DNA from: Candidatus Saccharimonadota bacterium
GTDB taxonomy: Bacteria; Patescibacteriota; Gracilibacteria; BD1-5; UBA2023
Direction: 5' to 3'
Length of the DNA stretch: 32,000 nt
Assembly (NCBI GenBank): GCA_963706795.1
Contig: OY970170.1
Span: 660,001-692,000 of the forward strand
Notes under the pieces: generated by a model
Databases searched by the model: none
What the model was told of the DNA's origin: nothing
The model's input: only the letters and a program-made list of their open reading frames with translations
Position numbers and translations under genes: made by a program
Shown here: one piece after another, positions 1,158-31,848 of the stretch
How the letters are laid out: every line of letters begins with the position of its first letter
Position numbering within the stretch: position 1 is the stretch's first letter

Positions 1158-2705
1158 TTAGGAATTGATTTGAAATACACTCATACTCTTGGTAAGTCCT
1201 TGAGCTTGTGAGGTAAGTGATGCGGTTGCAGCGGCTGCTTCTTCGACCAGAGCTGCGTTTTGTTGCGTGACAGTATCCATCTGACCAATCGCTTCGCTGA
1301 TACCAGTGATATCATTGCTTTGTCTGGCAGATGCTGTGCTAATAGACTCCACGATGGCAGTAACACTGGCGATCGCTTTTACGATATCCTGCATACTCTC
1401 ACCGGCTTCGTCCACTAATTTGCTGCCCTGATCAACAGTTCTCATCGACGAGCCAATGAGTTTTTTAATCTCAGCGGCAGCGGCAGCTGATCGTTGAGCA
1501 AGGGTTCGAACTTCGGTCGCGACGACAGCAAAACCACGACCTTGTTCTCCGGCACGTGCAGCTTCTACGGCTGCATTGAGGGCTAGAATATTTGTTTGAA
1601 AGGCGATGCTATCGATAGTGCTGGTAATATCGCCAATCTTTTTGGAGCTTTCTTTGATTAATCCCATAGTTTCAATTACGGAATCAACCACCCTTCCCCC
1701 TTCAACAGCCATATTGGATGCCTGGATGGCGAGCGTGTTTGCTTGCTCGGCATTTTCGGCATTCTTTTTGACGCTGCTCGTGAGAGTTTCCATAGACGCA
1801 GCTGTTTCTTGGAGAGACGAAGCTTGCTCTTCGGTGCGGCTTGAGAGATCAAGATTTCCGTTGGCAATTTCGCTTGCTCCGATAGCAACTGTATTTACAG
1901 ACTGTCGCACTTCTCCCACGGTGTGTGCGAGATTTTCAGACATGTGAGCCACGGCTTCCATAAGTTTGCCGATTTCGTCACGGGTTGTGGCAGTTATTTT
2001 GCCAGTGAGATCATTGTTTGCAACTCGCTCTACGGCTTCCACTGCCAGATTCAGCGGTAAGGTAATACTCTTGCTCATACGAAGTGCGAAAAACATGCCT
2101 ATTCCCAAAGTAAAGACCATACTAACAAGCAGGAGATAACCCAAGAATTCGATACGATTTTTTGCTTCGAGCTCATGCTGGGCATTTGCTGCTTCTATGA
2201 GTGGAATAACCTCTTCAATTGCTTTGCTGTGCGTGCTGTAGGCAGTAGAAGCATTTTTAACCGCAAGCAGCGTGGTGTCGCCATCCATATTTTCGACTGC
2301 TGGAATGAGCTCACTTTTAACAATCTTATAAAACAAAACGGCAGGCTCATGAGCTTTTTTAAGCAAAAGATCCATGATTTTTGGATCTTTTTCGGTTTTT
2401 GTCAAAAAACTGTGGAAATCAAGATAAGATTTTTCGAGTGATTTGAGTTCATTAATGAGCTTTACTTGTTCGTTTTTGTCAGATGTATTTGCAAGCTCAC
2501 GCATTTTTAGCGCTGACCCCATGATATTACCTCTGGGTGCAAGCAATTCGGCAATTTGATCCTTCCCATTTACGATTTTGTTGTAGATGGGCCCATTGAT
2601 ATTGATCTCTTTGAGCATGTTGAATTCACCCCAAGCATACAGGGAAAATGCGACTGCAAAAATACTGATCAGACATATGAGCTTATGAGATATTTTCTTA
2701 AACAT
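1158..2705 (-). CDS. Methyl-accepting chemotaxis protein (helical sensor domain, 2 TM, HAMP, MCP signalling domain)
   Basis: The canonical MCP hairpin core is present: [31 protein letters not shown] and [45 protein letters not shown]-like segment follows the second TM. AAGGAG lies upstream of the ATG at 2703..2705 (an alternative upstream ATG is at 2757..2759). Stop is TAA; there is no internal TGA. Confidence 0.9.
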
Positions 2706-2847
2706 ATTCCTTCTCCTTGGTGTGTGTTTGTATGTTAAGTTGTCAGAGTGGTGAGACATATTTTTTTGTGTCTTCCAGCAGCGCAGTTATTTATAACTAA
2801 ATTCACTAGGGAAGTCAAAGACAAAGCTTTTTACTATGGCTCCATTT

Positions 2848-2876
2848 TTGCCAATTTTTGCGCGAAGTGATACGAT
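2848..2876 (+). promoter_or_regulatory. Sigma70-like promoter for pilT
   Basis: TTGCCA (2848..2853), a 17-nt spacer, then TACGAT (2871..2876). The ATG is 11 nt further on, and no SD is present. Confidence 0.45.
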
Positions 2877-2887: not shown

Positions 2888-3952
2888 ATGGCTCTCGACC
2901 GATTTCATGCACTTCTTGATGATGTGCTTACGACGAAGATTCCTGATCTGCATCTAACGACAGGGATGTGTCCATATATTCGTGGGCATGATGGTATGAT
3001 GCGCGCTGTGCCAACTTTTGGTGTTATGGAACTCGAAGAAATGAAGGCAATCGCTTCATTTGTCCTTCCTGCTGATCGTCGCGGAACCTGGCCGGACGAA
3101 AAAGAAATGGATGCTTCGTTTGAATACAAAAATGCCAGATTTCGTGTAAATGCCTATTTTGAAACCCGTGGTCCATCGTTCGCATTTCGTCTTGTAGCTC
3201 ACGAAGTGCCTTCGGTACAGGAACTTGGACTCTCACAGGCAACGATTGATCTCATGCACCGAGAGCATGGACTCGTGCTTGTTACAGGGCCTACTGGATC
3301 AGGAAAGTCGACGACACTTGCGTCAATGCTCGACTATATCAATACCAATTTTGAGAAGCATATTATTACGATCGAAGACCCCATAGAATACGTCTTCACT
3401 CCTAAAAAATCCCTCATTCACCAACGAGAAATCTCGGTCCATACTCACTCATTTGCGCGAGCCATCAAATCCTCACTCCGCGAGGATCCTGATGTCATTA
3501 TGGTAGGTGAAATGCGCGATCCAGAAACCATGGCCGCAGCCATTACACTCGCCGAAACGGGTCATTTAGTTCTCGCGACACTTCATACTAATGACACTGT
3601 GCAGTCGATTGATCGTATTATTGATTCTTTTCCTTCAGGGCAGCAGCCACAGATCCGAGTTCAGCTTGCGATGTCGCTCGCTGGAGTGGTGAGTCAGGTG
3701 CTTCTTCCACGTAAAGTCGGTAAGGGTCGCGTCGCGGCTCGAGAAGTGCTTCTCTGAAATGATGCGGTGAGATCGCTCATTATCCACGGTGCGACTCATC
3801 AGATATATTCGATGATCGAACTTGGTGCCCAAGAATGAATGGTCCTCATGGATCGTGCACTCGAGACGCTCTATATCAAAGGCGCGATCAGCAAAGAAGT
3901 CTTTAAAAGTCGAGTACGAGATCAAGATCTCCTCGCACTCCACCTAAATTAG
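2888..3952 (+). CDS. pilT: Type IV pilus retraction ATPase PilT
   Basis: Walker A is GPTGSGKSTT, followed by IITIEDPIEY, REDPDVIMVGEMRD and ATLHTN. In-frame TGAs lie at 3755..3757 and 3836..3838. The frame continues as NDAVRSLIIHGATHQIYSMIELGAQE(G)MVLMDRAL, the conserved PilT C-terminus, ending at TAG 3950..3952. Confidence 0.92.
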
Positions 3953-3956
3953 TCAT

Positions 3957-4904
3957 ATGAGTAACGAAAAGCGCGAAAAAAAGGAGTCGCCAATTAATGA
4001 GCTTAAGGCCTCACTCGACTCTATACGTAGCAATCTCAAGATTGCGCCGGTTATGGCGTTCCTCGACAAGTTCGACACTTTTATCGCCAAAAAGAAAAAA
4101 ATCCTCGCAAAAGACGAAGTCCTCTTTGAACCTGGAGAAAACCCATATTTTTATATTGTCGCGTCTGGTGCAATTGGCATTTTTCGCATCAATCCTACCG
4201 GTGAAAAAAAGGAAGTTGGTAAGGTCTATACCGGATCGTTCCTCTGAGAAGGAGTCATCTCCAACCGTAATCAAAAGGATGTTCAGGCGCTTTCGGCTTC
4301 TGAACGCACGACCGTTATCGCACTCACAAAAGCTGACCTCGAATACCTCGAGTCCATGGACCCTGAGACGCTTGTAGCTCTCTATAAACACATCAATAAT
4401 ATCACGAGTCTTCGTCTTGCTGAGACTGGCCGTGAGCTTGCTGTGCTCTATGAACTCACCGAAAAAATCCAAGAATTTCGTGATCTTGGACAGCGTGGAA
4501 TGCTCGATGCGATCAATCATCTCGCGAGCGTACTCTCGATTAGTGCGATCCTCGTCATCGAAAAACACCCAATCGTCCCAAATCTCTTCATTTATAAATA
4601 TAACTCGAGGTTTCCGACGGTCTGGCCCATGAATCAAAAAGTTGAATCCGAGATTAAGCTCGCCGAAGGAAGCTACGAAGGCCCAGAGATCATGGGTACG
4701 AAAAAGGAGGATTCGATATTTATCTTGCCACTCTTGTCCGGAGAAAAAACAGTCGGATATATCGTGACTTCCAGAGCTCAAAATACTCCACTCGGAGATG
4801 GTGATATGCGTGTACTCAAGCATACTGGACCACTTCTTGCCTCGATGCTTGAACACCACCAAAAACTCGCCGATGATAAAGCTCGCGCTCTCCGAAATGT
4901 TTAG
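3957..4904 (+). CDS. Cyclic-nucleotide-binding domain + GAF domain protein, no recognisable output domain
   Basis: ORFs 3957..4247 and 4356..4904 share a frame and are joined through the TGA at 4245..4247. This creates the cNMP-binding signature YTGSFL(G)EGVI. The C-terminal half looks GAF-like (SIFILPLLSGEKTVGYIVTSRAQNTPLGDGDMRVLKHTGPLLASMLEHH). The gene starts 4 nt after the pilT stop. Confidence 0.75.
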
Positions 4905-4908
4905 TCTC

Positions 4909-4936
4909 TTGCGTAGTCACTCTTTCTCTCTATAAT
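4909..4936 (+). promoter_or_regulatory. Sigma70-like promoter
   Basis: TTGCGT (4909..4914), a 16-nt spacer, then a perfect TATAAT (4931..4936). Confidence 0.5.
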
Positions 4937-4943
4937 CCATCCC

Positions 4944-7409
4944 TTGATCAAAGAAATGCTCGAATCTACGCTCCTCGAAGTTCGTGTCGATCGCCTCAAT
5001 GAAAAGGGGGTTTTTGTCGCGGAGCAGATTTTGAACATTCTTCATAACACGGTGGATGAGCAGCGTCATGGGATTTTTCATAAGCATCAGGCACATTTTG
5101 TGCCCTACAGTTTTGAAATAGCGAATATCGCGGGAGTGATCAGATTTTTCTTTCGAGCACCGACGACCCATGTAAATATCCTGCAAAATCAGATCTACGC
5201 ACATTTTCCAAATGTCGAGCTCAATATTGTACCAGAATACCTTCCGAGTCGTGCTCCATACATCTCTGAGCTCGGACTTGCAAAGGACTATATTCGTCCA
5301 ATCAAGATATATACAGAGTTCAAGGATCGAAGCGAAAAGGAAACCGTTGATCCGCTTTCTTCGCTCTCGAGCGCTCTGTCGAAGGCGCACAAAGACGAGC
5401 CAGTAGTTTTTCAGGTCAATTTTTCGCCGATCCTCGATACCGAATGGAAGGATGAGCATGTTATAGAAATCCTCGCTTCTAAGCGTCCGAAGTGGATCAA
5501 AAGGATCCTGCTTTCGCCCTATGGTTTTGCTCTACAGCTCCTCTTTATGCCATTTTTGGCACTGGGTCGTCTGACAATGCTCGTGGTCCGCGGATCCGCT
5601 TCATCTGATCATGGTGATGAGCACCACGGTCACGAAAAAGAAGACACCAAAAAACTCGAACTCGAAGAAAAACTCAAAGGATTTGGCTATGCGGTCGATA
5701 TGCGCATCGCTTCGTATGCCGAAAACGCAGTCACTGCAAAATCTTCGCTCAAAGAAGTCGCCACCGCCCTCAATATCTTTGCTCGTCCAGGTGGCAATAA
5801 TCTCCGTGCATCTGCTCCAGTAGCTGATGCCAATCAGACTTTTGCAGCACGACTTAATCGTCGCAATATGCTCCTCAATACTGCGGAGCTCGCAGGTATT
5901 GTTCATATGCCGACGATCTATGTCAAAACACCAGGAATCAACTGGGTAATTACCAAAAAGTTTGAGCCGCCACATAACATCCCGACGATTGATCTGCATG
6001 ATGACGCAACTCCAATCGGAATGACTAATTTCCGTGGAAGCGAGGTGCCATTTGGAATTCTGCCAAATGATCGTCGTAGGCATGTGTATGTTATTGGTAA
6101 GACGGGTATGGGTAAGTCGACCCTTCTCGAAAATATGATCTTTGATGACATCCAAAAGGGTCGTGGTGTTGGATTAGTTGATCCGCATGGAGACCTTGCG
6201 GAGACGATCCTCGCATGTATTCCAAAGAGTCGAACGAATGATGTTATCGTGTTTGATCCATCAGACTACAAGCATCCGATTGCATTTAATATGCTCGAGC
6301 AGGTAAAGCCTGAACTTCGTCCGATTGTTGCATCAGGATTGGTGTCGATTTTTAAGAAAATCTTTGGTGATAGTTGGGGGCCACGACTTGAGCACATCAT
6401 GCGAAATACGGTGATGACCCTGCTGGAAATGCCGGATACGACGATCATGTCGATCCCACTCATGCTCACCATGAAGTCGTACCGACTCAAGATTGTTGCC
6501 AAGATTAAGGATCCAAATCTTGCCCGCTTTTGGACGAGTGAATACGAAGTCCTCGAACCACGTCAAATGACCGAAGCGGCTGCGCCCATCCTCAATAAGG
6601 TTGGACAATTCCTCTCGAGTCCGCTGATGCGCAATATTCTTGGGCAGCCAAAAAATCCGTTCTCACTCCGCTGGGCTATGGACAATGGCAAGATTATTAT
6701 TGTGAAGCTTCCAAAGGGAACGATTGGTGAAGACTCTTCGGCTCTGCTTGGTGCGATGATGGTTACAAAATTCCAGATCGATGCGATGAGTCGAGCGGAT
6801 ATTCCAGAATCTGAGCGTCGGGATTTTTATCTCTATGTCGACGAATTCCAAAATTTTGCGACCGATTCCTTTGCGACGATCCTCTCTGAAGCTCGCAAAT
6901 ATAAGCTCAATCTCGTCATGGCTAATCAGTATATTGAGCAGATGACTGAGACAGTTCAGGGTGCAGTTTTTGGAAATGTCGGAACGCTCGTGTCATTTCA
7001 GGTAGGTTTCCATGATGCAACCAAACTCTCTGAGGTGATGGATGAGGAAGTGGTTCTGCCGAATGACCTTATGAATCTTCGAAAATACGATATCTATACG
7101 AAGCTTCTCATTGATGGAATGCCTTCGCCAGTATTCTCTGCAACGACCCTTGCTCCGATCAGAGCACGCCTCGAAATCCCAGAACAAAAGGCGGATGTTG
7201 TACTCAAGGTTTCCCGTGAAAAATACTCAAAACCGGTCGATCTCGTAGAGCGTAAAATCCTCGAATTTAATATGAAGGTCGTCGAGGACGAGAAAAAATT
7301 CCAAAAAGCAGCCGAGGAATACAAAGAAAAGAAAAAGGAAGAGAAAAAAGCCAAAGCTGATGCTGATAAGGTAAAGCTGAGTAATGTGACTCCGAATGAA
7401 AAACAATAG
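4944..7409 (+). CDS. VirD4/TraD-like (FtsK/HerA-superfamily) P-loop ATPase with K/E-rich tail
   Basis: The ORF is 821 aa. Walker A is VIGKTGMGKSTLL and Walker B is FYLYVDEFQNFAT. A membrane-like segment (ILLSPYGFALQLLFMPFLALG) is present. The start is either TTG 4944 or ATG 4956. There is no internal TGA. Confidence 0.8.
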   Translation: MIKEMLESTLLEVRVDRLNEKGVFVAEQILNILHNTVDEQRHGIFHKHQAHFVPYSFEIANIAGVIRFFFRAPTTHVNILQNQIYAHFPNVELNIVPEYLPSRAPYISELGLAKDYIRPIKIYTEFKDRSEKETVDPLSSLSSALSKAHKDEPVVFQVNFSPILDTEWKDEHVIEILASKRPKWIKRILLSPYGFALQLLFMPFLALGRLTMLVVRGSASSDHGDEHHGHEKEDTKKLELEEKLKGFGYAVDMRIASYAENAVTAKSSLKEVATALNIFARPGGNNLRASAPVADANQTFAARLNRRNMLLNTAELAGIVHMPTIYVKTPGINWVITKKFEPPHNIPTIDLHDDATPIGMTNFRGSEVPFGILPNDRRRHVYVIGKTGMGKSTLLENMIFDDIQKGRGVGLVDPHGDLAETILACIPKSRTNDVIVFDPSDYKHPIAFNMLEQVKPELRPIVASGLVSIFKKIFGDSWGPRLEHIMRNTVMTLLEMPDTTIMSIPLMLTMKSYRLKIVAKIKDPNLARFWTSEYEVLEPRQMTEAAAPILNKVGQFLSSPLMRNILGQPKNPFSLRWAMDNGKIIIVKLPKGTIGEDSSALLGAMMVTKFQIDAMSRADIPESERRDFYLYVDEFQNFATDSFATILSEARKYKLNLVMANQYIEQMTETVQGAVFGNVGTLVSFQVGFHDATKLSEVMDEEVVLPNDLMNLRKYDIYTKLLIDGMPSPVFSATTLAPIRARLEIPEQKADVVLKVSREKYSKPVDLVERKILEFNMKVVEDEKKFQKAAEEYKEKKKEEKKAKADADKVKLSNVTPNEKQ

Positions 7410-7426: not shown

Positions 7427-7466
7427 AAAAAAGCCGAGTCATATAACTCGGCTTTTGTTTTTTGAT
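7427..7466 (+). terminator. Rho-independent terminator
   Basis: AGCCGAG (7432..7438) pairs with CTCGGCT (7447..7453), followed by TTTGTTTTTT. Confidence 0.75.
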
Positions 7467-7490
7467 TGCACTTTCGTGCATCTCTATACT
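7462..7490 (+). promoter_or_regulatory. Promoter placed for a leaderless transcript
   Basis: TTGATT (7462..7467), a 17-nt spacer, then TATACT (7485..7490). The ATG at 7499 is only 8 nt downstream and there is no SD. Confidence 0.5.
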
Positions 7491-7498
7491 ATGTTCGC

Positions 7499-8341
7499 AT
7501 GATCGCTCAGATACTCCCGCTCGATACTTCTCATGATAGTGAATGACTTACGTATTTTGTTCCAGAAAATCTGCGAAACATGCGCGTTGGACAGCTTGTT
7601 GAGATCCCATTTCGTGAGGAAATTACTCAAGGGATTGTCGCTTCTCTGCGAGAATATGAGGGCGAAATTCCTGATGAGGTTCGTGCGGTAGTGAGTATTG
7701 TTTTTGCGATTCCAGTGCTTTCTGAGGCACAGGTCCAGACTATTCTCGAGATCGCAAAACTCTCAGTGATTCATACCCACAAAGTCCTTGCTCTTTTTTT
7801 AACGAAGCCAGTTCTCCATCGCATGCTCAAATACGGTATTCCAGCGAACGAAAATAGTGTTTCCTCACCGAGAAATATTCCAGCAAAACCCGTGCTCCAT
7901 TTTTTGCGCGAGAGTTCGGAGTTGGCTTCGTATGCAGCTTCGTTACGAGTGAATCGTACGGCGTACATCGTGCCTTCTGACTGGTATGTTTCTCGATTAA
8001 AAGAAACTCTCTCATGAGAAAATCTGGGAATATTTAGCGGAGAACTCACTGAGACAAAGCGCGCACAACTCTGGCTCGATATTCGTGCTGGCAAATACCA
8101 AACACTCATTTGAACTCGCAGGCTTTGCACCTATAATTTGGACGAATTCGACCGAATCATCTATCTCGAGGATGCTATTATGAAAGAAATGCTCCATTCA
8201 TTTCATAGATATAGTTGTTTGTCACTGACCGAGCGCTTAACAAAGCATGCTCATCAAGAATTTCATATCGTCTCCACCACCCCTGCAATAAGCACACTCG
8301 CTCGTACGCTCGCCACCCATTTTGAACTCCGCAATGCCTAA
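7499..8341 (+). CDS. Truncated, motif-degenerate PriA-like (primosomal protein N') protein
   Basis: The N-terminus resembles PriA (LTYFVPENL...VGQLVEIPFREEITQGIVASL). Later, ELTETKRAQLWLDIRAGKYQTLI(G)TRRL and IVSTTPAIST align with the PriA helicase lobe-1 order. In-frame TGAs lie at 7544, 8015 and 8111. The protein is about 280 aa and ends at TAA 8339..8341. Confidence 0.65.
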
Positions 8342-10652
8342 AATCCTCCTCATCCTCGAACGTCTTTTTGCCCGCTTTATGCGTCTTATGTGATCAATTG
8401 ATCGTATTGGGTACGTGACGGCCGCATTTGTTGCCTTTGGTCTCTTGATCCTCTGGACGACTTTTAAATATACGGTTCTTGAGGTTGATTATTACAAGGG
8501 TCTTGCTGATAAACAGCAGACGATCACTGTCAAAAATCCGGTTTCGCGAGGGACGATTTATTCTTCAAATGATCCGGCTGGCGTATTTGCGACTTCCACT
8601 GACTTGCCCGATCTTGCCATCGATCCAAAAGCTCCAGGCTCAAAAGATAAACTTCTCGTTTTTTTGGTGGATGTTGTCTATCTTGAGCTTTGCGGACGTG
8701 ATAAAATTGCCGACGAAAAATGCACCGAACACGTACTTGAATTTCTCCGTATCAATCGCGATGACAACATAGATTATACGAGTGAACTCCTTCATAATAT
8801 GCTCAAAGATGAGCTCAAACGTCGTATTAACAAAGAATTCATCGACTTCGTCCTCGTCAAAGAAAACCTCCCAACCGATGAGCTCAAAGAAGCCGAAGCC
8901 TTTGTCTATAGCGGGGTAACGCTTATCGCGGGCAATATCTACGTCGATCCTACGACGATCAAGGATCCTGATTTTGTTTCAGCAAAACTCCAGACTATTC
9001 TCAGCATGTCCAAGGCGGATGTGGATTCCAAGATTGTGAAGCGTCCATTACGATATCTCAAGATCCTTCGTCGTATGAGTCTGGGGACCAAGGACTATAT
9101 TGACGCACGCCTCGATGACGAAAAATCTGCAACGAGCAAAGGACTGCTTAAAGAGGTTGATTCGATCACATCATTTTTGATCCTTGAGCCCCATCCAACG
9201 AGATTCTATCCAGAAAAAAACATGGGTGGCCAGATCGCTGGCTTTGTCGATAACGAAAATATCGGACGATATGGAATCGAAGCCTATTTCAATGACTATC
9301 TCCAGGGCCAAGAAGGTGAACGCCAAACCCGAAAAGATGCCGCTGGTCGTACGATCTGAGGCTACGATCTCGGTGAAAAAAAGATCATAAATGGAGCTGA
9401 CATCAAACTCACTATCGATCGCAATATCCAAAAAGAAGTTACTCGACTGCTCGCTGATTCGATTAAAGAATTCCGTGCGAATAAAGGTTCGGTCGTAATT
9501 TTGGATCCTAAAACAGGTGCGGTGATCGCCATGTCTAACTATCCGGATTTCGATCCAAATAATTTTGGAGATGTCTATACTATCGAAAAAGTCAGTTACG
9601 CGCGCTATCCCAATCCTTCGTTTGATCTCCTCGGAATGCCGATATTTGTTGAAGATTCCGAAAATGGCGAAGAACTCAGCTATCTAGGTAAAAAAATAAA
9701 GCTCCGTCTCGCAACAGAGCGTGAACTCGGCAACGTAGCGATAGCAAAATACAAGTACAAGGACAATTTTGGTCCTGCGAATTATCAAAATGATTCGGTC
9801 AGTTCGCTCTATGAGCCATGATCGGTTTTCAAGGCGATTACCGTTTCGATCGGTCTTGATACGGGCGACATTAAGCCGACGGATACCTATGTGGACAAGG
9901 GATTTGTCGAGATCGACAAATATAAAATCAAGAATGTCTCGAGTGAATGTCTTGGTCGCAATACGTACGCCCACGCCCTCGACTGGAGTTGTAATGTTGG
10001 TATGATCGACATCGCCCAAAAAATCGGAAAAGCTCTTTTTTATAAATATGTCCTCGATTTTGGCTTTGGTGAAAAGACCAATATTACCCTTGATGGTGAG
10101 GTTCATGGGAAACTTCCCCCATACGAAAAATGGTCGAGAACCGACCTCTTTACAGCTTCGTTTGGACAGGGATTGATTACTGCAACACCTCTTCAGATGG
10201 CAGCTGCGTACGTAGCGATCGCGAATGGTGGAATATATTATCAGCCATATATCGTGGATTCGATTACCTTTGGTGATGGGCGAGTAGTTAAAAACGCACC
10301 AACACCACTCAGGCGAGTTATCAAAGAAGAGACTTCTAAAAAAGTAGTAGCCATGCTCACGGAAGGTGCTTCGATCGGTTTTGCGAAGAAGGGTTGAGTA
10401 GAATGATATGACACCGCTGGTAAGACGGGTACATCCCAGATCGCCTCAAAAGGAAAATACGAAGAAGGTTCCGCCGGTCATACGATTACGTCATACGGAG
10501 GATTTGCTCCTGCATCCAATCCAAAATATGTCATGATCGTTAAAATTGATCGTCCGCGTTCGGCGCAGTATTCTGAGACTACGTCCTCGGCACTCTTCTC
10601 GCGCATCTCCAAGTACCTCCTCAATTACTACGGAATCCCAAAAAATCAGTAA
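8334..10652 (+). CDS. Class B penicillin-binding protein (FtsI/PBP2-type transpeptidase)
   Basis: The ATG at 8334 overlaps the preceding stop (ATGCCTAA). Five in-frame TGAs (8391, 9357, 9819, 10395, 10404) fuse four ORF-track pieces that share one frame. The transpeptidase motifs are YEP(G)SVFK (SxxK), WSCN (SxN) and AGKTGTS (KTG). An N-terminal TM helix is present. Confidence 0.9.
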
Positions 10653-10665: not shown

Positions 10666-10700
10666 ATAAACCCTCGCAACATGCATGAGGGTTAATTTAA
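10666..10700. terminator. Bidirectional terminator
   Basis: AACCCTC (10669..10675) pairs with GAGGGTT (10687..10693). An A-rich run lies upstream, giving a strong T-run on the minus strand. A weaker T/A run lies downstream. Confidence 0.65.
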
Positions 10701-10726
10701 AATTGGTTGTTTTGCCTGTGCACTTA

Positions 10727-10930
10727 CTACCATACCATCCTTGGCAGATGGTAGTAAGTGTCGTCGCCAGGGAATACACTGAGAGCTTTTGGCTCTGGCA
10801 GTGACAGATTTGTTGATTTCCCTGTTTCTTCGCAAGTTGGCTCAATAACTTGTGCGCTATGAGCCGCGATCAGTGCGTTTGTAATAAATGGAACATTTCC
10901 TGCAGCTTGCAGGCCATATCGACCAATCAT
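10727..10930 (-). CDS. Stand-alone 67-aa hypothetical protein
   Basis: AAGGAG lies exactly 6 nt upstream of the ATG. The gene has its own promoter (11017..11044), a TAG stop and a terminator at 10666..10700. I recognise no family. Confidence 0.6.
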   Translation of the reverse strand: MIGRYGLQAAGNVPFITNALIAAHSAQVIEPTCEETGKSTNLSLPEPKALSVFPGDDTYYHLPRMVW

Positions 10931-11016
10931 GATATTCTCCTTCTTGAAAAACGTGATTGAGACAAGTCTTCAAAAATACCAATGCTTCCTCATTAATTCG
11001 ATGATTCAGCTAACAA

Positions 11017-11091
11017 ACTCTAGGAAATCTTAAAAGAAAGTCAATTTTTTGCACGACTTAATTTGACAAAGCTTCCTTCCTGCCTATTAAT
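11017..11091. promoter_or_regulatory. Back-to-back divergent promoters
   Basis: Minus strand: TTGACT (11039..11044), 16 nt, TAGAGT (11017..11022). Plus strand: TTGACA (11063..11068), 16-17 nt, TATTAAT (11085..11091). Confidence 0.55.
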
Positions 11092-11098
11092 GCTCAGC

Positions 11099-11572
11099 AT
11101 GAGTACATCACGTTTAGAGCAGTTTGCTTCGGCTACTGCGCTCGCGACATCCCTCGCGATGCTTCCACTTGAGTCAACCGCTGCCGACAAGGCCTGCGAT
11201 CGTAATTCCCTCAAAGTCGAATCCATACTAACGAATGAATGGCATAGCTTAGATACCACGTATCGCCTTCCACTAGCACTCTGTGCACGATACGGTCTCG
11301 AGATCCAAACAGTACTCGATACACCAAAACCCGCCAATTTCTGGACGGTGCCAAATAAGATTGCAGGAGCCAATGAAGATGTTTTTGCAAAGCCCTCTGC
11401 TCGTCTCGGTGGATACTACACTGACTGAGGCAATACGTATTCAACAGGACTCGGAAGGGGTGGGCTCGGCATCTCATTCTCAAAAGTGTCACCGAACTCA
11501 GCTCTCTATTTGAGCTGATCAGTAAATCCTCTCAAATGAAGTTTTATTTTCTCAGTTTGAGCAAGATACTAA
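11099..11572 (+). CDS. Hypothetical exported protein with Gly-rich beta-strand-like C-terminus
   Basis: The ATG at 11099 (alternative 11090) lies 8 nt after the -10 box. The N-terminus is signal-peptide-like (FASATALATSLAMLPLESTAA). With four TGAs (11426, 11516, 11537, 11558) read as Gly, the frame runs to TAA 11570..11572, directly abutting a terminator. The C-terminus reads GGYYTDGGNTYSTGLGRGGLGISFSKVSPNSALYLSGSVNPLKGSFIFSVGARY. Confidence 0.55.
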
Positions 11573-11573
11573 A

Positions 11574-11609
11574 ATAAATCCCCAGTCGTTTGACTGGGGA
11601 TTTATTTTG
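11574..11609. terminator. Bidirectional terminator (serves the 11099 gene and rpsA)
   Basis: ATCCCCAGTC-GTTT-GACTGGGGAT (11578..11601), flanked by AAAATAA and TTATTTT. Confidence 0.85.
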
Positions 11610-11619
11610 CCTGAATAGA

Positions 11620-12819
11620 TTATTCAGCAGCTGCTTCTGGAGCTGGAGCTTCAGTTGCTTCTTCTTTCTTTGCCTTTGGAGCCTTCTTTGCTTTTGGTGC
11701 AGCTTCTGCATCAGCAGACTCTGCGGCTGGAGTTTCTGCTCCGGCTTCGAGAGCCTTCATAGAGAGACCAATACGCTTTGCCTGTGCATCGAAAGTAATA
11801 ATCTTTGCCTTTACACTCTCACCAACCTTGATGAATTCTTCGATATTCTTCGAAGCTTCAGTTGAGATTTCAGAGAGGTGGATGAGACCAGAGATTCCAC
11901 CATCGAGGGCGAGGAATACTCCAAACTGAGAAATACGCATTACTGGAGCATCAACGATGTCACCAACCTTGTATTTTGCAGCGAGTTCAGCCCATGGGTT
12001 TGCGCGGAGGCGCTTCATAGAGAGGCTGATCTTGTCTCCTTCGATTCCGATAATCTGAACCTTAACATTGTCTCCAACCTTCGCGAACTTTGAAGGATTA
12101 GATACGTGTCCCCAGTCGATTTCAGAAACGTGAACGAGTCCTTCGATACCGTTGAAAGTAATGAAGAGTCCGTATGTGAGGATTCCTGATACAGAACCTT
12201 CGACGATGTCTCCCGCCTTGAGGTGAGAGAGAGCTGCTGCGCGCTGCTCTTCGAGGGCTGCCTTTTCAGAGAAGATGATCTTCTTTCCATCGTTGTCGAC
12301 GTTGATAACGCGAACCTTGAATGGTTTTCCAACGAGACGCTGAAGGTGCTCGAGAATCTTTTCTGGATCTGCTCCTTCAACACGTGGGTAGTTGACTGGA
12401 GTGAGCTGAGAAACTGGGATGAATCCCTTGATTCCGTCGAGGTCAATGAGGAGACCTCCCTTGTTTGCTTCGTTCGGGATAACCGTGATGATTTCCTTTG
12501 TGTCGAAGTTTGAGTGGAGCTTCTCGATGAGCTTGATCTGTGAAGCCTTGCGGAGTGAGAGGTGAACGATACCAGAGTGTCGGTCTTCACCGATAACAAT
12601 AGAATCAACCTTATCACCACTTGCGAGTCCAGATGCATCCTCAGTAGAAGAATACATGTGAGTTCCGGCAATTACTCCTGTGAACTGTCCTCCGATGTCC
12701 ACGAGGATCATCTTAGGAGATGCAGAAATAACCGTACCAGAAATAATTTCTCCCATTGCAGGAGTAAGAATTGGTGCAGCTGAAGCAATCAGTGCGTCAA
12801 AATCAGACTGTACAGACAT
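11620..12819 (-). CDS. rpsA: 30S ribosomal protein S1 (four S1 domains, A/E/K/P-rich tail)
   Basis: The 399-aa ORF has repeated S1-domain signatures (G.IV.G.V....G.F...GI.G..H.SE). No TGA; stop is TAA. Confidence 0.9.
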   Translation of the reverse strand: MSVQSDFDALIASAAPILTPAMGEIISGTVISASPKMILVDIGGQFTGVIAGTHMYSSTEDASGLASGDKVDSIVIGEDRHSGIVHLSLRKASQIKLIEKLHSNFDTKEIITVIPNEANKGGLLIDLDGIKGFIPVSQLTPVNYPRVEGADPEKILEHLQRLVGKPFKVRVINVDNDGKKIIFSEKAALEEQRAAALSHLKAGDIVEGSVSGILTYGLFITFNGIEGLVHVSEIDWGHVSNPSKFAKVGDNVKVQIIGIEGDKISLSMKRLRANPWAELAAKYKVGDIVDAPVMRISQFGVFLALDGGISGLIHLSEISTEASKNIEEFIKVGESVKAKIITFDAQAKRIGLSMKALEAGAETPAAESADAEAAPKAKKAPKAKKEEATEAPAPEAAAE

Positions 12820-12827
12820 GATTTTAA

Positions 12828-12855
12828 AAATTACGAAATAAACGTTGGATGTAAA
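12828..12855 (-). promoter_or_regulatory. Candidate rpsA promoter giving a leaderless mRNA
   Basis: On the minus strand: TTTACA (12850..12855), 16 nt, TAATTT (12828..12833). The rpsA ATG follows 8 nt later and there is no SD. Confidence 0.4.
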
Positions 12856-12942
12856 AATCTTCGCTTTCGCGAGTTAGTACTGTATTTGGGATTCTTCGTT
12901 TCAGGATAGTCTTGCTCCTTCGCTCTGACGAGCTTCGGAGGG

Positions 12943-12979
12943 CAAGCCCCGTCGTGGGGTTTGAGTGAACTTAAACTTA
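12943..12979 (-). repeat. Copy A of a ~38-nt direct repeat
   Basis: Minus-strand reading is TAAGTTTAAGTTCACTCAAACCCCACGACGGGGCTTG. Compare with copy B at 13068..13105. Confidence 0.8.
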
Positions 12980-13067
12980 TGAAGTGGTGAGGCTTGCCCT
13001 ACGGGCGCCCTCGGCCGAAAGCCAAATCGTTGGCTTTCTAAAACGCATTCGCGTTTTACCTCACGTT

Positions 13068-13105
13068 CAAGTCTCGTCATGGAGGTTTGTGTGAACTTAA
13101 ACTTA
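13068..13105 (-). repeat. Copy B of the direct repeat, abutting the tRNA-His 3' end
   Basis: Minus-strand reading is TAAGTTTAAGTTCACACAAACCTCCATGACGAGACTTG. The first 22 nt differ from copy A at one position. Confidence 0.8.
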
Positions 13106-13183: not shown

Positions 13184-13198
13184 ACAAAAAGCAGGAAA

Positions 13199-13226: not shown

Positions 13227-13233
13227 AAGAAAA

Positions 13234-13274: not shown

Positions 13275-13315
13275 TGGGAATGTTGTAGGGAAATGATGTT
13301 GAGTGATAATGCACC

Positions 13316-17029: not shown

Positions 17030-17674
17030 ATGCAGTTTACAAAAAACGCAAAAGGTTTCACGCTCATCGAACTCCTCGTCGTTATTACCATTATCGGTAT
17101 TCTCGCAGTAGGAGGTACGACCGTCTACACTTCTCAGATCCAAAAAGCTCGTGATACAACTCGTATCACTGATATCGAAGCTATCAAAAACGGTATCGAA
17201 CAAGTTTATCAGGACAAGGGTTCATATCCAGATGTAACATCTGCAGGAACCGCTGATGCTCCAGGATTTAAAACCGTCAATGACTACAATCCAAAATTTG
17301 GTAAGGATCCAAAATCGGGTCAATCATGTGGTGCTGGTACTTCGATTGCTGGTACTCCATGTGACTACTACTACGGTGTAGCACAGGATACAAACAATAT
17401 CAAAAATCAGGTTTACCGCGTCTCAACTGGTTTTGAAAACAAAGGAAATATCGACTCTAAGGCTCTCGGTGATGGAGGAACCAACAATGCTCGTCTCGAG
17501 CTCGGAATCCTCTCAACTGCCAATAATACGGCACTCGATTCAGCTGCTGGAAATACAGGAAACAATACAACTGCCGGTGCATTTACTGCCGCAGGTGTAA
17601 AATCTGATGTGGCCGTATCTACGTGTGGTACAGAGTTTGGAATGCTCGTTATCAAGGGTGGTGTGTGTCCATAA
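17030..17674 (+). CDS. Type IV pilin / pseudopilin (prepilin-type N-terminal cleavage-methylation domain)
   Basis: The N-terminus MQFTKNAKG/FTLIELLVVITIIGILA is the class III signal, with G at -1 and E at +5. The protein is 214 aa and has paired Cys residues in the C-terminal part. Confidence 0.9.
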   Translation: MQFTKNAKGFTLIELLVVITIIGILAVGGTTVYTSQIQKARDTTRITDIEAIKNGIEQVYQDKGSYPDVTSAGTADAPGFKTVNDYNPKFGKDPKSGQSCGAGTSIAGTPCDYYYGVAQDTNNIKNQVYRVSTGFENKGNIDSKALGDGGTNNARLELGILSTANNTALDSAAGNTGNNTTAGAFTAAGVKSDVAVSTCGTEFGMLVIKGGVCP

Positions 17675-29751: not shown

Positions 29752-31848
29752 CTACTTTTCTGTAGCGCGATAGTCGCCCATCCAATCCTCGGAAGGTGCC
29801 TCGGTTATATAGCGATTTGTACGCTCAAGGAAGGTTTTAGATGCACTGTCATTGTATTCGGTAACCAGCTCTTCGAAGAGCTTTTTTGCGAGGACAAAAT
29901 TGCGAGATTGGTATTGAGTGAGCGCAGTCTCAAATTTTTTAATGAGACTGAGAACACTGTCATGTACGAGCCCGCGAACTCCTACAAGCTCATAGATATT
30001 GAGTGGCAGATCCTTTCCTTTTGCCATAATCGAGTCGAGCTTACGGAAGACAAAATGTGCGTGCTCGCTTTCGTAGATCGACTGCCCGACGCAGATCTTT
30101 GTGCCATAAAATTTATTGATTCCTTCAAAGCGTGAAGCGGTATTGACGGTGTCGCCGAGCGCAGTGTATTCAATCTTTTTCCCTTCACTTCCGATATTAC
30201 CAACGACGGCCTGTCATTTGTTGAGACCCATACGGACAGAGATTTCAAAGCCAAATTGGGATTTGAATTTTTCGTTCATTTTCGCGATAGCTTCCTGTTG
30301 CAGAATCGCTGACTTACAGGCGAGATAGGCCTGACGATCCTCGAGCCCGAAGGCTCCCCAGATCGCCATAACGGCATCACCTTCATATTTATTGACGAAT
30401 CCCTGCTCGTGGATGATGATATTTGAGACTTCTTTGAGATATACTGAGAGGAAACTTACGAGCTCTTCTGGCTCCATGCGCTCCGAGATGGTTGTAAAGC
30501 CAGCAATGTCTGAGAAAAAAAGCGTGACTTCTTTGCGGACTCCTCAGAGTTTTACTTCTTGATAATTGGAGAGTACGGCAGTTACGAGCTCTTCGGCTAA
30601 GTATTGCGAGAGCGTATTTTTGAGAAGGCGCTTTCCTTTTTCTTCATAGATATATTTGTAACTCGTCACGGCGATCGCGGTGAGCACGACCACCATAATA
30701 ATCTCAGTCGGGTGGAGGAAAATCTTGGATGACATACTAAACACCACCAGATAGAAAAATCCACCAATTGTCAGTGCAACAAATGAATACGCGAGCTGAT
30801 AGATGCGATTTTCGACGTGCATCAAAAATAGTGTCAGTGCGAGTGCTAAAAAGAGGATGATGATATATTCACTTCCTTGAGAAACATACGAAAGAAAGGC
30901 ACTATTGAGGATAGTATTGACGAGATTGAGATGCACATTTACTCCATATGTAATGCCAATCGGAGTAAAAAACTCGTCATGCAATGCGGTTGCGGTCGCT
31001 CCAATGAAGATAATTTTGTCCTTCACCAAAGCGGGATCAAAGGTGTCATTATAAATATCCACGAATGAGATCGTCGAGAACGAAAGATCTTTTGGGATGT
31101 AGTTTATAAGTACTTCGTTTTTGTTCGATTGAGAGAGGGGAATGTATTCATATTTTCCGGTATGAAATTTGAGATATCACTCATAGTCGAGAGCTCCAGT
31201 ATTGACGTTTGTATTGATCGCATTCGCTGTATCGAGATATGTTCGCATTGTTGCGAGCGAGAATGGCTCATATACTGTTCCACTGTTAGTCTTGATGATC
31301 GGCGCAATGCTATATACCAGACCATTCGTACTATCAAGAAGTGGCTGGAAGTATCCGATCGATTTTGCGGATTCGCGGAGTTTTTCGGTGGGATAGATGA
31401 GCTCTTCTCATTTGGAACTGCGAGCGATGGACATTCCAATGGTGACATTACCAGCTCGCTTGATAGCAGCTGCGAGAACATCATCGCCATCGGCCTTCTC
31501 AGAAAAAAGTACGTCTATTCCAATTGCGATCGCTCCATGCTTCATGAGGTTGTCGATCGCCTGGGCGTAGTACTCTCGTTTAAATTCTTGCCAGCGTCCA
31601 AGACCACCCCTGTCGCCATCAAGAAGCGTTCTATCATCGATCGCCACGAGCGATATACTCTGATTTCGCTCTCTTGGATGCCACGGGATCTCCATTGAGA
31701 AGAGAATATTTCGAATCCCGAGATTCGAATATCGTACGACCGTCGCAAACGGATAAATATTTGAGATGATTCCCACAACGAAGAGTACGAGCGTGGTGAT
31801 GAGTACTGAAAACAGCCACTTATTTCCGATGAGCGAACGATTTTTCAT
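29752..31848 (-). CDS. CHASE2 sensor domain - multi-TM - class III adenylate/guanylate cyclase
   Basis: Same-frame pieces join through TGAs at 31408, 31177, 30544 and 30214. The CHASE2-like N-terminus is VAIDDRTL...WQEFKREYYAQAIDNLMKHGAIAIGIDVLFSE. Four hydrophobic helices lie at 30544..31062. The cyclase motifs are VTLFFSDIAGFT, KYEGDAVMAIWG, GLNK(G)QAVVGNIGS and YTALGDTVNTASRFE. Confidence 0.88.

What the first reader, a model, noticed from the sequence alone, without database searches (positions are those of the whole stretch)
2888..7409. pilT, a cNMP-binding/GAF protein and a VirD4-like ATPase form a tight cluster, with a CHASE2 cyclase elsewhere in the window
The three co-oriented genes are separated by 4 nt and 39 nt. 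The middle protein pairs a cyclic-nucleotide-binding domain with a GAF domain and has no HTH or enzymatic output. It could therefore be a nucleotide-sensing adaptor acting on the flanking ATPases rather than a Crp-type regulator. The window also encodes a membrane CHASE2-class III cyclase (29752..31848) and a pilin (17030..17674). cAMP control of type IV pili is known in Pseudomonas (Vfr) and cyanobacteria (SyCRP1), but there it acts through transcription factors. Direct post-translational coupling in a pilus-dependent, DNA-scavenging episymbiont lineage would be new. The 821-aa coupling-protein-like ATPase beside pilT suggests a DNA-translocation role.
Basis: inference. Interest (0 to 1): 0.65.

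Follow-up and report, generated by a model that had tools for sequence, protein, structure and literature searches.

The report
PilT-coupled cyclic-nucleotide sensor gene pair
A pilus-retraction motor gene (pilT) is followed by a gene for a small sensor protein (cyclic-nucleotide-binding domain plus GAF domain, no output domain) in all 37 related loci checked that have upstream DNA, from tiny symbiotic bacteria to ordinary ones, which suggests an undescribed switch acting directly on pilus retraction; the third gene, a VirD4-like ATPase, is a lineage-specific add-on.

Summary
Under genetic code 25 (UGA=Gly) the window encodes pilT (2888-3952), a 315-aa cNMP-binding+GAF protein (3957-4904) and an 821-aa DUF8128/VirD4-like ATPase (4944-7409). 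The gaps are 4 and 39 nt, with a promoter-like site before pilT and a strong terminator after the ATPase. The CHASE2 cyclase and the pilin are also there. No DNA-binding domain exists: the C-terminal half models confidently as a GAF fold. Synteny is conserved, but unevenly. PilT lies directly upstream of the sensor in 37 of 37 loci with upstream DNA. These include AT-rich recoded lineages and standard-code, 47-66% GC non-CPR bacteria; 0 of 77 control loci with a generic cNMP domain have PilT. The ATPase follows only in the window's clade (25 loci) and is absent in eight loci with over 1 kb of downstream DNA. In one standard-code relative the pair is followed directly by a CHASE2 cyclase and a PilB-type ATPase. 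The phosphate-binding cassette keeps Gly-Glu, but its hallmark Arg is Lys in 108 of 125 family representatives, the window included. The 16 Arg-type members are almost all canonical R-[ST]-A. The most likely role is a nucleotide-gated partner of PilT. This is inferred, not shown.

The parts
2848..2876 (+). Promoter-like site (TTGCCA-17-TACGAT, with TG before the -10) 12 nt upstream of the pilT start
   Evidence: Consensus scan. Weak evidence only: the region has fewer such sites than shuffled sequence.
2888..3952 (+). pilT: type IV pilus retraction-type ATPase, 354 aa under code 25. Walker A GPTGSGKST 3287-3313, Walker B region DVIMVGEMRD 3491-3520, His box GHLVLATLHT 3560-3589, in-frame TGA (Gly) at 3755 and 3836
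   Evidence: TIGR01420 410.7 bits (cutoff 319.1); T2SSE 168.9 bits; motifs located; 43-88% identical PilT upstream of the sensor in 37/37 loci
3957..4904 (+). Stand-alone sensor protein, 315 aa: cNMP-binding beta-barrel (aa 50-129, 4104-4343), long linker helix (aa 134-175, 4356-4481), GAF-fold domain (aa 176-315, 4482-4901). No HTH and no enzymatic domain
   Evidence: cNMP_binding 43.9 bits; AlphaFold models; Foldseek CRP/FNR-type barrel; GAF-only hits; no PADLOC or PHROG hit
4239..4289 (+). Phosphate-binding cassette FLGEGVISNRNQKDVQA: Gly97 (encoded by TGA 4245) and Glu98 kept; Lys107 at the canonical Arg position; Asp108 at the Ser/Thr/Ala position
   Evidence: Ungapped HMMER alignment to PKA RII-alpha and 2pqq; Lys in 108 of 125 two-domain family representatives, Arg in 16
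4560..4640 (+). Most conserved GAF-domain segment (EKHP ... YKYNSRFPTVWPMNQK); [KR]-Y-[ND]-[ST]-R is retained in the AT-rich recoded relatives L033-L036
   Evidence: Alignments. The role (ligand pocket or protein interface) is not determined.
4931..4936 (+). Perfect TATAAT hexamer inside the 39-nt spacer, 7 nt before the TTG start of the ATPase: a possible internal promoter
   Evidence: Read from the sequence. Not flagged by the scan (no -35 element). Untested.
4944..7409 (+). DUF8128 / VirD4-like P-loop NTPase, 821 aa (ATG alternative start at 4956). Soluble N-domain, one hydrophobic segment aa 188-215 (5505-5588), Walker A GKTGMGKST 6096-6122, Walker B YLYVDEFQNF 6828-6857, Lys/Glu-rich tail
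   Evidence: Pfam; PF26449 precomputed; TrwB 1e9r E 1.8e-6 and DotL as the only solved relatives; hydropathy and conservation; mad8 66 bits and phrog_5156 252 bits
7429..7456 (+). Intrinsic terminator (11-bp stem, 5 G-C pairs, then a T-run) 20 nt after the ATPase stop; closes the three-gene unit
   Evidence: The two other + strand terminator-like hits (3547 and 5881) lie within coding sequence, have short 5-6 bp stems and lack a strong T-run.
29752..31848 (-). Membrane CHASE2 + class III nucleotide cyclase, 698 aa; predicted active adenylate cyclase; unlinked here (22 kb away) but a plausible signal source
   Evidence: CHASE2 148 bits and Guanylate_cyc 75 bits; best solved relatives are adenylate cyclases (6fht 1.5e-29, CyaB 3r5g 2e-25), with the metal Asp residues, Lys (NKYEGD), Thr (EYTALGD) and Asn/Arg (VNTASR) present; conserved in Gracilibacteria; adjacent to the pair in L037
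17030..17674 (+). Type IV pilin-like protein (N-terminal methylation motif); shows that pilus genes are present in the window; not linked to the trio
   Evidence: N_methyl 36.8 bits

Best explanation
The locus is one transcription unit in a Gracilibacteria-type genome that reads UGA as Gly. It encodes pilT, a stand-alone cNMP-binding+GAF sensor, and a DUF8128/VirD4-like ATPase.

The ancient, conserved unit is pilT plus the sensor. The sensor has two ligand-type domains joined by a long helix, which probably mediates dimerisation. It has no DNA-binding or catalytic output. The most likely mechanism is therefore that it binds the PilT hexamer and gates its ATPase or retraction activity according to a small-molecule signal.

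That signal was ancestrally cAMP, made by a CHASE2 membrane adenylate cyclase that responds to an external cue. In the recoded lineage the phosphate-binding Arg has become Lys. Nucleotide binding there is probably weaker or retuned, and the GAF domain may contribute.

The VirD4-like ATPase is a later, clade-specific third gene. It is co-transcribed and probably serves some pilus-associated translocation task, but it is not the sensor's primary target.

Shown: gene structure, domain architecture, absence of an HTH, synteny statistics, the state of the cassette, and conservation and linkage of the cyclase. Inferred: the physical interaction with PilT, the ligand, the direction of regulation, and the ATPase's role.
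For: - PilT is directly upstream of the two-domain sensor in 37/37 loci with upstream DNA. These span sensor identities from 81% down to about 22% and GC from 21% to 66%, in both recoded and standard-code organisms.
- Control: 0/77 loci with a generic cNMP domain alone have PilT.
- In the genome-collection loci L001-L026, ORF-boundary junctions are -16 to +26 nt in most, with overlaps in several. In the four AT-rich recoded loci L033-L036 the called genes are 4-19 nt apart.
- The outer flanks change while the pair persists.
- Architecture: cNMP 43.9 bits; GAF fold at pLDDT 89 with only GAF hits; no HTH; no defence-system or phage family.
- The cassette segment is under selection: G-E is near-universal and a basic residue is kept at the right spacing.
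- Arg-type relatives have the canonical R-[ST]-A and pass Pfam thresholds for cNMP and GAF.
- L037 order: PilT - sensor - CHASE2 cyclase - DUF3307 - MshEN/T2SSE PilB-type ATPase - GAF-HD.
- The cyclase is predicted active and adenine-specific. It is conserved across Gracilibacteria and co-occurs with the trio in the same contig or MAG. It lies within 7-9 kb of the trio in L021 and L024.
- Operon signals in the window.
- R209K in PKA RI-alpha still binds cAMP analogues, only weakly (PMC8447923).
Against: - No interaction test was possible, because no multimer prediction tool was available.
- The hallmark Arg is Lys, followed by Asp/Glu, in the window's branch. In canonical domains this weakens binding.
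- The cassette loop is the least confident part of the full-length model (pLDDT below 50 at residues 99-103).
- The window protein's GAF Pfam scores are below threshold.
- Only one locus (L037) has the cyclase immediately adjacent. L040-L042 show none in their flanks.
- No gene fusion of PilT with the sensor appeared among the top 150 representatives.
- Tight operon linkage shows a shared function, not a mechanism.
Confidence: 0.55

Rival explanations
1. The Lys-type sensor no longer senses cyclic nucleotides. It is either a constitutive structural accessory of PilT, or it senses a different ligand through the degenerate cNMP pocket or through the GAF domain. In that case the CHASE2 cyclase is unrelated to it in this lineage.
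For: Arg is replaced by Lys in 108/125 representatives, usually followed by an acidic, Gln or Pro residue. The Arg makes the phosphate salt bridge, and R209K binds only with a Kd in the micromolar to sub-millimolar range. Many CRP/FNR-fold domains bind non-nucleotide ligands, as seen among the hits (FNR, CprK, PrfA, NtcA). The cyclase is 22 kb away in the window.
Against: Gly-Glu and a basic residue at the exact canonical spacing are kept under strong selection over very deep divergence. The cyclase is retained in these reduced genomes and co-occurs with the trio. Arg-type ancestors are canonical and in one case cyclase-linked.
Confidence: 0.25
2. The sensor's main target is the VirD4-like ATPase, or both ATPases equally. 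It would act as an adaptor that couples pilus retraction to a DNA or protein translocase.
For: The three genes form one unit with a single terminator in the window. The ATPase follows the sensor in 24 loci and lies 5.4 kb further on in one more. ATPase homologues sit beside pilin genes elsewhere (L027).
Against: The ATPase is absent downstream in L014, L017, L034-L037, L041 and L042, although each has more than 1 kb of downstream DNA. The sensor-ATPase spacer is looser (26-250 nt) and holds a TATAAT. ATPase homologues occur without pilT or the sensor (L027-L029, L031). The ATPase family (at least 5,755 clusters) is vastly larger than the sensor family.
Confidence: 0.1
3. The sensor is a transcription regulator or an anti-sigma-type factor, working like Crp, Vfr or SyCRP1 through a cryptic DNA-binding or partner-switching surface. 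Its position next to pilT would then reflect only co-regulation.
For: The N-terminal barrel is closest in fold to CRP/FNR regulators. Sources name homologues 'CRP-like cAMP-binding protein'. CodY uses a GAF domain in a DNA-binding regulator.
Against: There is no HTH or winged helix: the C-terminal 140 residues are a GAF fold ending in one long helix. No Pfam or NCBIfam DNA-binding hit was found. Strict adjacency to one gene, often with overlap, across phyla is atypical of a global regulator.
Confidence: 0.05
4. The adjacency is inherited gene order with no functional link between the genes.
For: In the window's nearer relatives a longer block (GrpE, g543, the trio, a PriA-like gene, PBP) is collinear.
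Against: The pair persists where every flank differs, in organisms from 21% to 66% GC and with two genetic codes. The 0/77 control argues against chance.
Confidence: 0.05

Closest known systems
cAMP-receptor transcription factors that control type IV pili (Vfr of Pseudomonas aeruginosa, SyCRP1 of Synechocystis; CRP/FNR family)
   Same: N-terminal cNMP-binding beta-barrel followed by a long helix, with the fold closest to CRP/FNR structures including Vfr 2oz6. Functional theme of cAMP and pili. The nearest solved cyclase relatives include CyaB.
   Different: No C-terminal HTH; a GAF domain takes its place. Encoded next to pilT rather than acting as a global regulator. The cassette Arg is Lys in this lineage. 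It cannot act by binding DNA as those proteins do.
c-di-GMP receptors that act directly on pilus motor ATPases (MshEN domain of MshE/PilB-type ATPases; FimX-PilZ-PilB). Named from general knowledge; an MshEN+T2SSE gene is present in L037.
   Same: The concept of post-translational second-messenger control of a T2SSE-family pilus ATPase.
   Different: Different messenger class and receptor fold. Those systems target the extension ATPase; here the partner is the PilT-type retraction ATPase, and the receptor is a separate two-domain protein.
Regulatory subunits of cAMP-dependent protein kinase (PKA R subunits)
   Same: A cNMP-binding protein with no output domain of its own that works by binding and releasing a catalytic partner. 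They are the best sequence matches to the cassette region (3j4q and 2qvs).
   Different: Tandem cNMP domains rather than cNMP+GAF. The partner is a kinase. The canonical Arg is present. This is an analogy for the mechanism only.
cNMP-binding GAF domains (PDE2/5/6, cyanobacterial CyaB1/2, Leptospira Lcd1)
   Same: The C-terminal domain has the GAF fold, with Lcd1-cAMP (5w10) and PDE5/6 among the hits.
   Different: Sequence identity is only 10-18%. The ligand pocket was not assessed. Those domains regulate a covalently attached enzyme.
Type IV coupling proteins (VirD4, TrwB, TraD, DotL) and the orphan T4CP homologues of Patescibacteria (PMC12102498)
   Same: The only solved relatives are TrwB and DotL. 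Walker A and B motifs are present. Pfam T4CP families score just above threshold. Like most of the 5,713 Patescibacteria homologues, it is not near virB4.
   Different: NCBIfam T4CP models score far below their cutoffs. The N-terminus is a 185-aa soluble DUF8128 domain plus one hydrophobic segment, not a two-helix membrane anchor. The NTPase core matches mad8 better than TrwB (66 against 32 bits). No T4SS gene is among the window ORFs scanned. The linkage to pilT is not reported in that paper.

Membership tests
PilT/PilU type IVa pilus retraction ATPase (TIGR01420) | Family HMM score above the curated cutoff | tested here: met
   410.7 bits against 319.1, aligned over residues 7-339
PilT/PilU type IVa pilus retraction ATPase (TIGR01420) | Walker A, Walker B/Asp box and His box of secretion ATPases | tested here: met
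   GPTGSGKST, DVIMVGEMRD and GHLVLATLHT are present
PilT/PilU type IVa pilus retraction ATPase (TIGR01420) | C-terminal AIRNLIRE motif that distinguishes PilT from PilU (recalled from general knowledge) | tested here: inconclusive
   AVRSLIIHG at residues 293-301 is a partial match
PilT/PilU type IVa pilus retraction ATPase (TIGR01420) | Pilus retraction activity | not testable with these tools
   Needs genetics or microscopy
Cyclic-nucleotide-binding domain (PF00027) as a cAMP/cGMP receptor | Domain HMM above the gathering score | tested here: met
   43.9 against 27.5 bits; 30/30 family members hit it
Cyclic-nucleotide-binding domain (PF00027) as a cAMP/cGMP receptor | Gly-Glu of the phosphate-binding cassette at canonical spacing | tested here: met
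   G97-E98; GE (or WE from code-4 miscalls) in 123/125 representatives
Cyclic-nucleotide-binding domain (PF00027) as a cAMP/cGMP receptor | Cassette Arg that salt-bridges the cyclic phosphate, followed by Ser/Thr/Ala | tested here: not met
   Lys107-Asp108 in the window. Lys in 108/125 and Arg in 16/125, the latter mostly R-[ST]-A.
Cyclic-nucleotide-binding domain (PF00027) as a cAMP/cGMP receptor | Measured nucleotide binding | not testable with these tools
   Needs ITC, DRaCALA or similar
CRP/FNR transcription factors | C-terminal helix-turn-helix DNA-binding domain | tested here: not met
   The C-terminal half is a GAF fold. NCBIfam CRP/FNR models score 17-20 bits against cutoffs of 228-274.
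GAF domain | Pfam GAF-family HMM above the gathering score | tested here: not met
   Window protein: GAF_3 17.7 and GAF_2 15.3 bits, below cutoffs of 27-29. Standard-code relatives L041 and L042 do pass: GAF_2 34.0 against 28.6, and GAF 31.7 and 29.0 against 22.4.
GAF domain | GAF three-dimensional fold | tested here: met
   Model pLDDT 89.3 and pTM 0.81. The top 50 Foldseek PDB hits are GAF-domain entries (plus one GAF-containing fusion construct and a radial-spoke entry); E as low as 6e-5; target-normalised TM up to 0.69.
Type IV coupling protein (VirD4/TrwB/TraD) | T4CP family HMMs above threshold | tested here: inconclusive
   Pfam TrwB_AAD_bind 31.8/20.5, T4SS-DNA_transf 28.1/20.1 and TraG-D_C 23.1/22 pass narrowly. 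NCBIfam TraD and CD1115 models score 25-39 bits against cutoffs of 250-650.
Type IV coupling protein (VirD4/TrwB/TraD) | Walker A and B NTPase core related to TrwB | tested here: met
   1e9r E 1.8e-6, aligned at 373-420 and 558-669. A family profile hits only TrwB and DotL.
Type IV coupling protein (VirD4/TrwB/TraD) | N-terminal two-helix membrane anchor | tested here: not met
   One hydrophobic segment at 188-215, after a 185-aa soluble DUF8128 domain. This is a hydropathy estimate only.
Type IV coupling protein (VirD4/TrwB/TraD) | Genomic association with VirB4, a relaxase or other T4SS genes | tested here: not met
   None among the window ORFs scanned. None in the called neighbours of L027-L032. 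The literature reports 148 of 5,713 near virB4.
DUF8128-containing ATPase family of Patescibacteria | PF26449 N-terminal domain plus full-length homology | tested here: met
   PF26449 is precomputed on the window protein P0052 and most homologues. At least 5,755 clusters at E<=1e-10.
Anti-phage defence systems with cNMP effectors or HerA-type ATPases (Pycsar, MADS, etc.) | Match of the components to defence-system models, and a defence-island context | tested here: not met
   The sensor has no PADLOC hit. The ATPase core hits only mad8 (one of many MADS genes). The context is housekeeping genes (GrpE, PBP, PriA-like).

The most novel reading that the evidence does not exclude
A membrane CHASE2 adenylate cyclase senses host or surface contact. 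Its product is read by the cNMP-GAF protein, which docks on the PilT hexamer to trigger or brake retraction. In Gracilibacteria the same adaptor recruits the DUF8128/VirD4-like ATPase to the pilus platform. Retraction would then be coupled to ATP-driven import of host DNA, or export of a substrate: a new uptake motor built from an exapted conjugation coupling protein. More broadly, the PilT-sensor pair would be a general, previously overlooked post-translational switch for pilus retraction in many phyla.
Probability: 0.1. Interest if true: 0.85.

Novelty: new variant of a known kind. Interest (0 to 1): 0.62.

Why it matters
How cells decide when to retract a type IV pilus is an old open question. 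Known second-messenger inputs act mostly on transcription (cAMP-Vfr) or on the extension ATPase (c-di-GMP).

A dedicated, output-less cNMP+GAF protein is encoded next to PilT in every one of the 37 loci checked here that have upstream DNA, in both CPR and non-CPR bacteria. That gives a concrete and testable candidate for direct control of the retraction motor.

The Arg-type versions in ordinary bacteria offer tractable systems. The Lys-type version in Gracilibacteria and related recoded lineages bears on how pilus-dependent episymbionts regulate host contact. The clade-specific attachment of an orphan VirD4-like ATPase gives the first genomic hint of what the thousands of 'exapted' coupling-protein homologues in Patescibacteria might be doing.

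Tried and rejected
I used homologue P0001 for the full-length model, and the window's own table-11 fragment P0002 (residues 134-315) for the C-terminal half.
2. Foldseek on the full-length model returned only CRP/FNR hits through the N-domain and said nothing about the C-terminal half. A separate C-terminal model solved this.
3. I first read the cassette as three residues too short, with R104 as the Arg. HMMER's ungapped alignment showed that K107 occupies the Arg position.
4. My first census of that column was shifted by hmmalign trimming. It was redone with motif anchoring.
5. The 12-sequence Arg-type alignment was too divergent for a pattern scan. The 5-sequence version mostly pulled generic cNMP proteins. 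Only 3 of 80 were two-domain relatives, but the other 77 served as a control.
6. Defence-system reading: PADLOC found nothing for the sensor and only a mad8/HerA-type core for the ATPase. Rejected on context.
7. Phage relatives of the ATPase (phrog_5156, Bacillus phage G gp156 and others) are unannotated and 21-26% identical, so they give no functional clue.
8. Literature searches found no description of the pairing. The searches were DUF8128; Gracilibacteria+pili+PilT; cAMP+PilT+cNMP domain; cNMP+GAF+pilus; Gracilibacteria+adenylate cyclase; and pilT+cNMP+GAF.
9. Rfam found only one tRNA in the window.
10. I looked for PilT-sensor fusions by protein length among the top 150 representatives and saw none.

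Full report
**Observation.** Read with the standard bacterial code the region is fragmented: pilT stops at 289 aa and the middle gene is split in two. With code 25 (UGA=Gly) the window yields long, coherent ORFs. The gaps are 4 nt and 39 nt. The three in-frame TGAs fall on Gly positions, one of them the Gly of the cNMP cassette. Homologues that databases translated with code 4 carry W at conserved G columns. A promoter-like site with an extended -10 lies at 2848-2876. A strong intrinsic terminator (11-bp stem plus T-run, 7429-7456) follows the ATPase stop by 20 nt, and no convincing + strand terminator separates the genes.

**What the three proteins are.** Gene 1 is a bona fide PilT/PilU-family ATPase: TIGR01420 scores 410.7 bits against a cutoff of 319.1, and the Walker A, Walker B and His boxes are present.

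Gene 2 has a cNMP-binding domain above threshold (43.9 against 27.5 bits, residues 50-129). Its GAF hits are below threshold (15-18 bits). All 30 aligned family members hit cNMP_binding and 20 of 30 hit GAF_3. A full-length model of a homologue (pLDDT 72.7) shows a beta-barrel, a roughly 40-residue helix and an alpha/beta module. Its PDB matches are all CRP/FNR-type and come through the barrel. A separate model of the window's own residues 134-315 is confident (pLDDT 89.3, pTM 0.81). It matches essentially only GAF domains (PtsP, CodY, Lcd1-cAMP, PDE5/6, NifA, phytochromes), with E down to 6e-5 and target-normalised TM up to 0.69. There is no helix-turn-helix and no enzymatic domain, and nothing matches in the defence-system or phage libraries.

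Gene 3 has an N-terminal DUF8128 domain (PF26449, precomputed), a single hydrophobic segment at residues 188-215, and a highly conserved P-loop core. Its only solved relatives are the coupling proteins TrwB (E 1.8e-6) and DotL, and the match is limited to the Walker A and B segments. Pfam T4CP families pass narrowly, whereas NCBIfam T4CP models score far below their cutoffs. The core matches the MADS protein mad8 better (66 bits), and the whole protein matches phrog_5156, a phage family of unknown function. The family is very large, with at least 5,755 clusters. It corresponds to the VirD4-like homologues reported in 2,918 Patescibacteria genomes. Only 148 of those 5,713 genes are near virB4, and the authors say exaptation 'cannot be ruled out' (PMC12102498).

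**Synteny: the central result.** A scan of species-representative genomes with the middle-protein alignment gave 26 loci, labelled Gracilibacteria, 'Peribacteria' or Patescibacteria MAGs. Context look-ups and a profile search of 1.8 billion representatives added more distant relatives. One metagenome scan added three more.

Across the 38 loci that carry a two-domain sensor, 37 have upstream DNA, and all 37 have a PilT-type gene directly upstream. In L001-L026 the ORF-boundary junction is mostly -16 to +26 nt, with overlaps in several. In L033-L036 the called genes are 4-19 nt apart. This holds in three groups:
- the window's clade;
- very AT-rich recoded lineages, where the sensor is only 22-26% identical to the window's and each gene has 7-20 in-frame TGAs;
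- standard-code bacteria of 30-66% GC (L037, L038, L040-L042). One of these is a diderm with LpxK and an SLH protein nearby.

As a control, none of the 77 metagenome loci that carry only a generic cNMP domain has PilT nearby.

The VirD4-like ATPase behaves differently. It follows the sensor in 24 loci and lies 5.4 kb further on in one (L011), separated by a block that includes what look by eye like transposase-type ORFs. It is absent downstream in L014, L017, L034-L037, L041 and L042, all of which have more than 1 kb of downstream DNA. Its homologues also occur without pilT or the sensor, once next to four pilin-like genes (L027-L029, L031). The sensor-ATPase spacer is looser (26-250 nt), and in the window it contains a perfect TATAAT. 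So the ancient unit is the pilT-sensor pair, and the trio is a clade-specific elaboration.

**The cassette.** HMMER aligns the cassette without gaps to PKA RII-alpha and 2pqq. Gly97-Glu98 are kept. The canonical phosphate-binding Arg position is Lys107, and the next residue is Asp. Across 125 two-domain representatives, Gly-Glu is essentially universal, and the Arg position is Lys in 108, Arg in 16 and Asn in 1. The Arg-type members are nearly all canonical R-[ST]-A, show no W-for-G artefacts and sit at the family's periphery. The cassette is clearly under selection, but its hallmark residue is changed. Experimental work on PKA RI-alpha shows that this Arg salt-bridges the cAMP phosphate. It also shows that R209K still binds, only weakly, with Rp-cAMPS Kd of 396 uM for the isolated domain and 17 uM with the lid domain (PMC8447923). 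Ligand identity in the Lys-type branch therefore cannot be predicted.

**The cyclase link.** The window's CHASE2 protein (29752-31848, minus strand) has a class III catalytic domain. Its best solved relatives are adenylate cyclases, including P. aeruginosa CyaB, and the metal-binding, adenine-specifying and transition-state residues are all present. Homologues at 35-80% identity are common in Gracilibacteria. They co-occur with the trio in the same contig or MAG in at least three cases and lie 7-9 kb from the trio in L021 and L024. Most tellingly, in the standard-code locus L037 the gene order is PilT - sensor (canonical RTA cassette) - CHASE2 cyclase (E 2e-57 to the window's) - DUF3307 - MshEN/T2SSE PilB-type ATPase - GAF-HD protein. 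This is a single locus. L040-L042 have no cyclase in their fetched flanks.

**Interpretation.** The evidence supports a dedicated functional partnership between PilT and the cNMP-GAF protein. The sensor has two ligand-type domains and no output, so action by protein-protein contact on the PilT hexamer is the most economical mechanism, and cAMP from a CHASE2 cyclase is the most likely ancestral signal. These steps are inferences from gene linkage and architecture. No interaction or binding test could be run.

The rivals are: a Lys-type protein that has lost or changed its ligand (0.25); the ATPase as the main target (0.1); a cryptic transcription factor (0.05); and inert synteny (0.05). The ATPase is best described as a DUF8128-family member of the TrwB/HerA-type NTPase superfamily. 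It is related to coupling proteins but fails several of their defining features, and a DNA-translocation role is only a hypothesis.

**Comparison and novelty.** cAMP control of pili through Vfr or SyCRP1 is transcriptional. Direct messenger control of pilus motors is known for c-di-GMP acting on extension ATPases (general knowledge). A stand-alone cNMP+GAF partner of the retraction ATPase was not found in six full-text searches. I classify it as a new variant of a known kind, namely second-messenger receptors that act on pilus motors.

Noticed in passing
window 1158-2759 (-): A 533-aa methyl-accepting chemotaxis protein (MCPsignal 175 bits, HAMP 47 bits) is transcribed divergently from pilT. 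Among the related loci it is found only in the closest relative, L001 (50% identity). No CheA or CheW was seen among the window ORFs scanned. An MCP beside pilT in a reduced CPR-type genome recalls the Pil-Chp arrangement, but it is not conserved.
   Followed up: partly
L037 3909-10924: A standard-code, 30% GC metagenome contig carries a compact pilus-signalling cluster: PilT, cNMP/GAF sensor (canonical RTA cassette), CHASE2 cyclase, DUF3307, MshEN+T2SSE (PilB-type) and a GAF-HD protein. This may be the best natural 'complete' version of the module. The organism was not identified.
   Followed up: partly
L027 6001-14068: In a 971-kb Gracilibacteria contig the DUF8128 ATPase homologue (55% identical) is not next to pilT. 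It is followed by four genes with N-terminal methylation (pilin) motifs, two of them with LRR domains. This is an independent hint that the ATPase family is tied to pilus biology.
   Followed up: no
window 4944-7409; phage records such as Bacillus phage G gp156 (JN638751.1 91564-93105): The ATPase matches phrog_5156 (unknown function) nearly end to end at 252 bits, and its core matches the MADS defence protein mad8 at 66 bits. Relatives in large Bacillus, Lysinibacillus, Geobacillus and Microcystis phages are 21-26% identical and unannotated.
   Followed up: partly
L017 4495-10047: In this locus the sensor is followed by different genes. By eye these are a SpoIIE/PP2C-like phosphatase, a 647-aa VirB4/DUF87-like ATPase and a 631-aa pilin-like protein with a large C-terminal domain. 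This looks like replacement of the usual third gene by another ATPase-pilin set.
   Followed up: no
L011 10963-16220: A 5.2-kb block on the opposite strand separates the sensor from the ATPase. By eye it includes broken transposase-like ORFs and a 594-aa protein. It is probably a mobile-element insertion into the operon.
   Followed up: no
L041 3483-5544: Two PilT paralogues in tandem (45% and 43% identical to the window's PilT) precede the sensor in a 66% GC standard-code contig. This suggests that the sensor-linked PilT can be a specialised paralogue.
   Followed up: no
representatives P0347, P0367, P0370-P0375, P0380, P0381, P0391, P0399, P0425: A subgroup of about 14 sensors of roughly 282 aa has the cassette GEG[VA]LSG..KPASA (Lys-Pro-Ala) and no W-for-G artefacts. 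It may be a standard-code lineage that also carries the Lys-type cassette. If so, the Arg-to-Lys change would be uncoupled from the genetic-code change.
   Followed up: no
window 7466-8341 (+): A 291-aa ORF carries only the PriA 3'-DNA-binding domain (37.6 bits) and no helicase domains. Its end overlaps the start of the following 776-aa penicillin-binding-protein-like gene (8322-10652). The arrangement is conserved in the nearer relatives (28-68% identity).
   Followed up: partly
window 10700-14900: The long + strand ORFs here are Cys/Phe-rich and look spurious. The real genes appear to be on the - strand, for example 11620-12819, which by eye is a ribosomal protein S1-like repeat protein. Rfam finds one tRNA at 13109-13182 (-).
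   Followed up: partly
L021 537-2672; L024 23-982: Homologues of the CHASE2 cyclase (45% and 62% identical) lie 7-9 kb upstream of the trio in two other genomes, against 22 kb downstream in the window. This is a loose but recurrent neighbourhood.
   Followed up: partly
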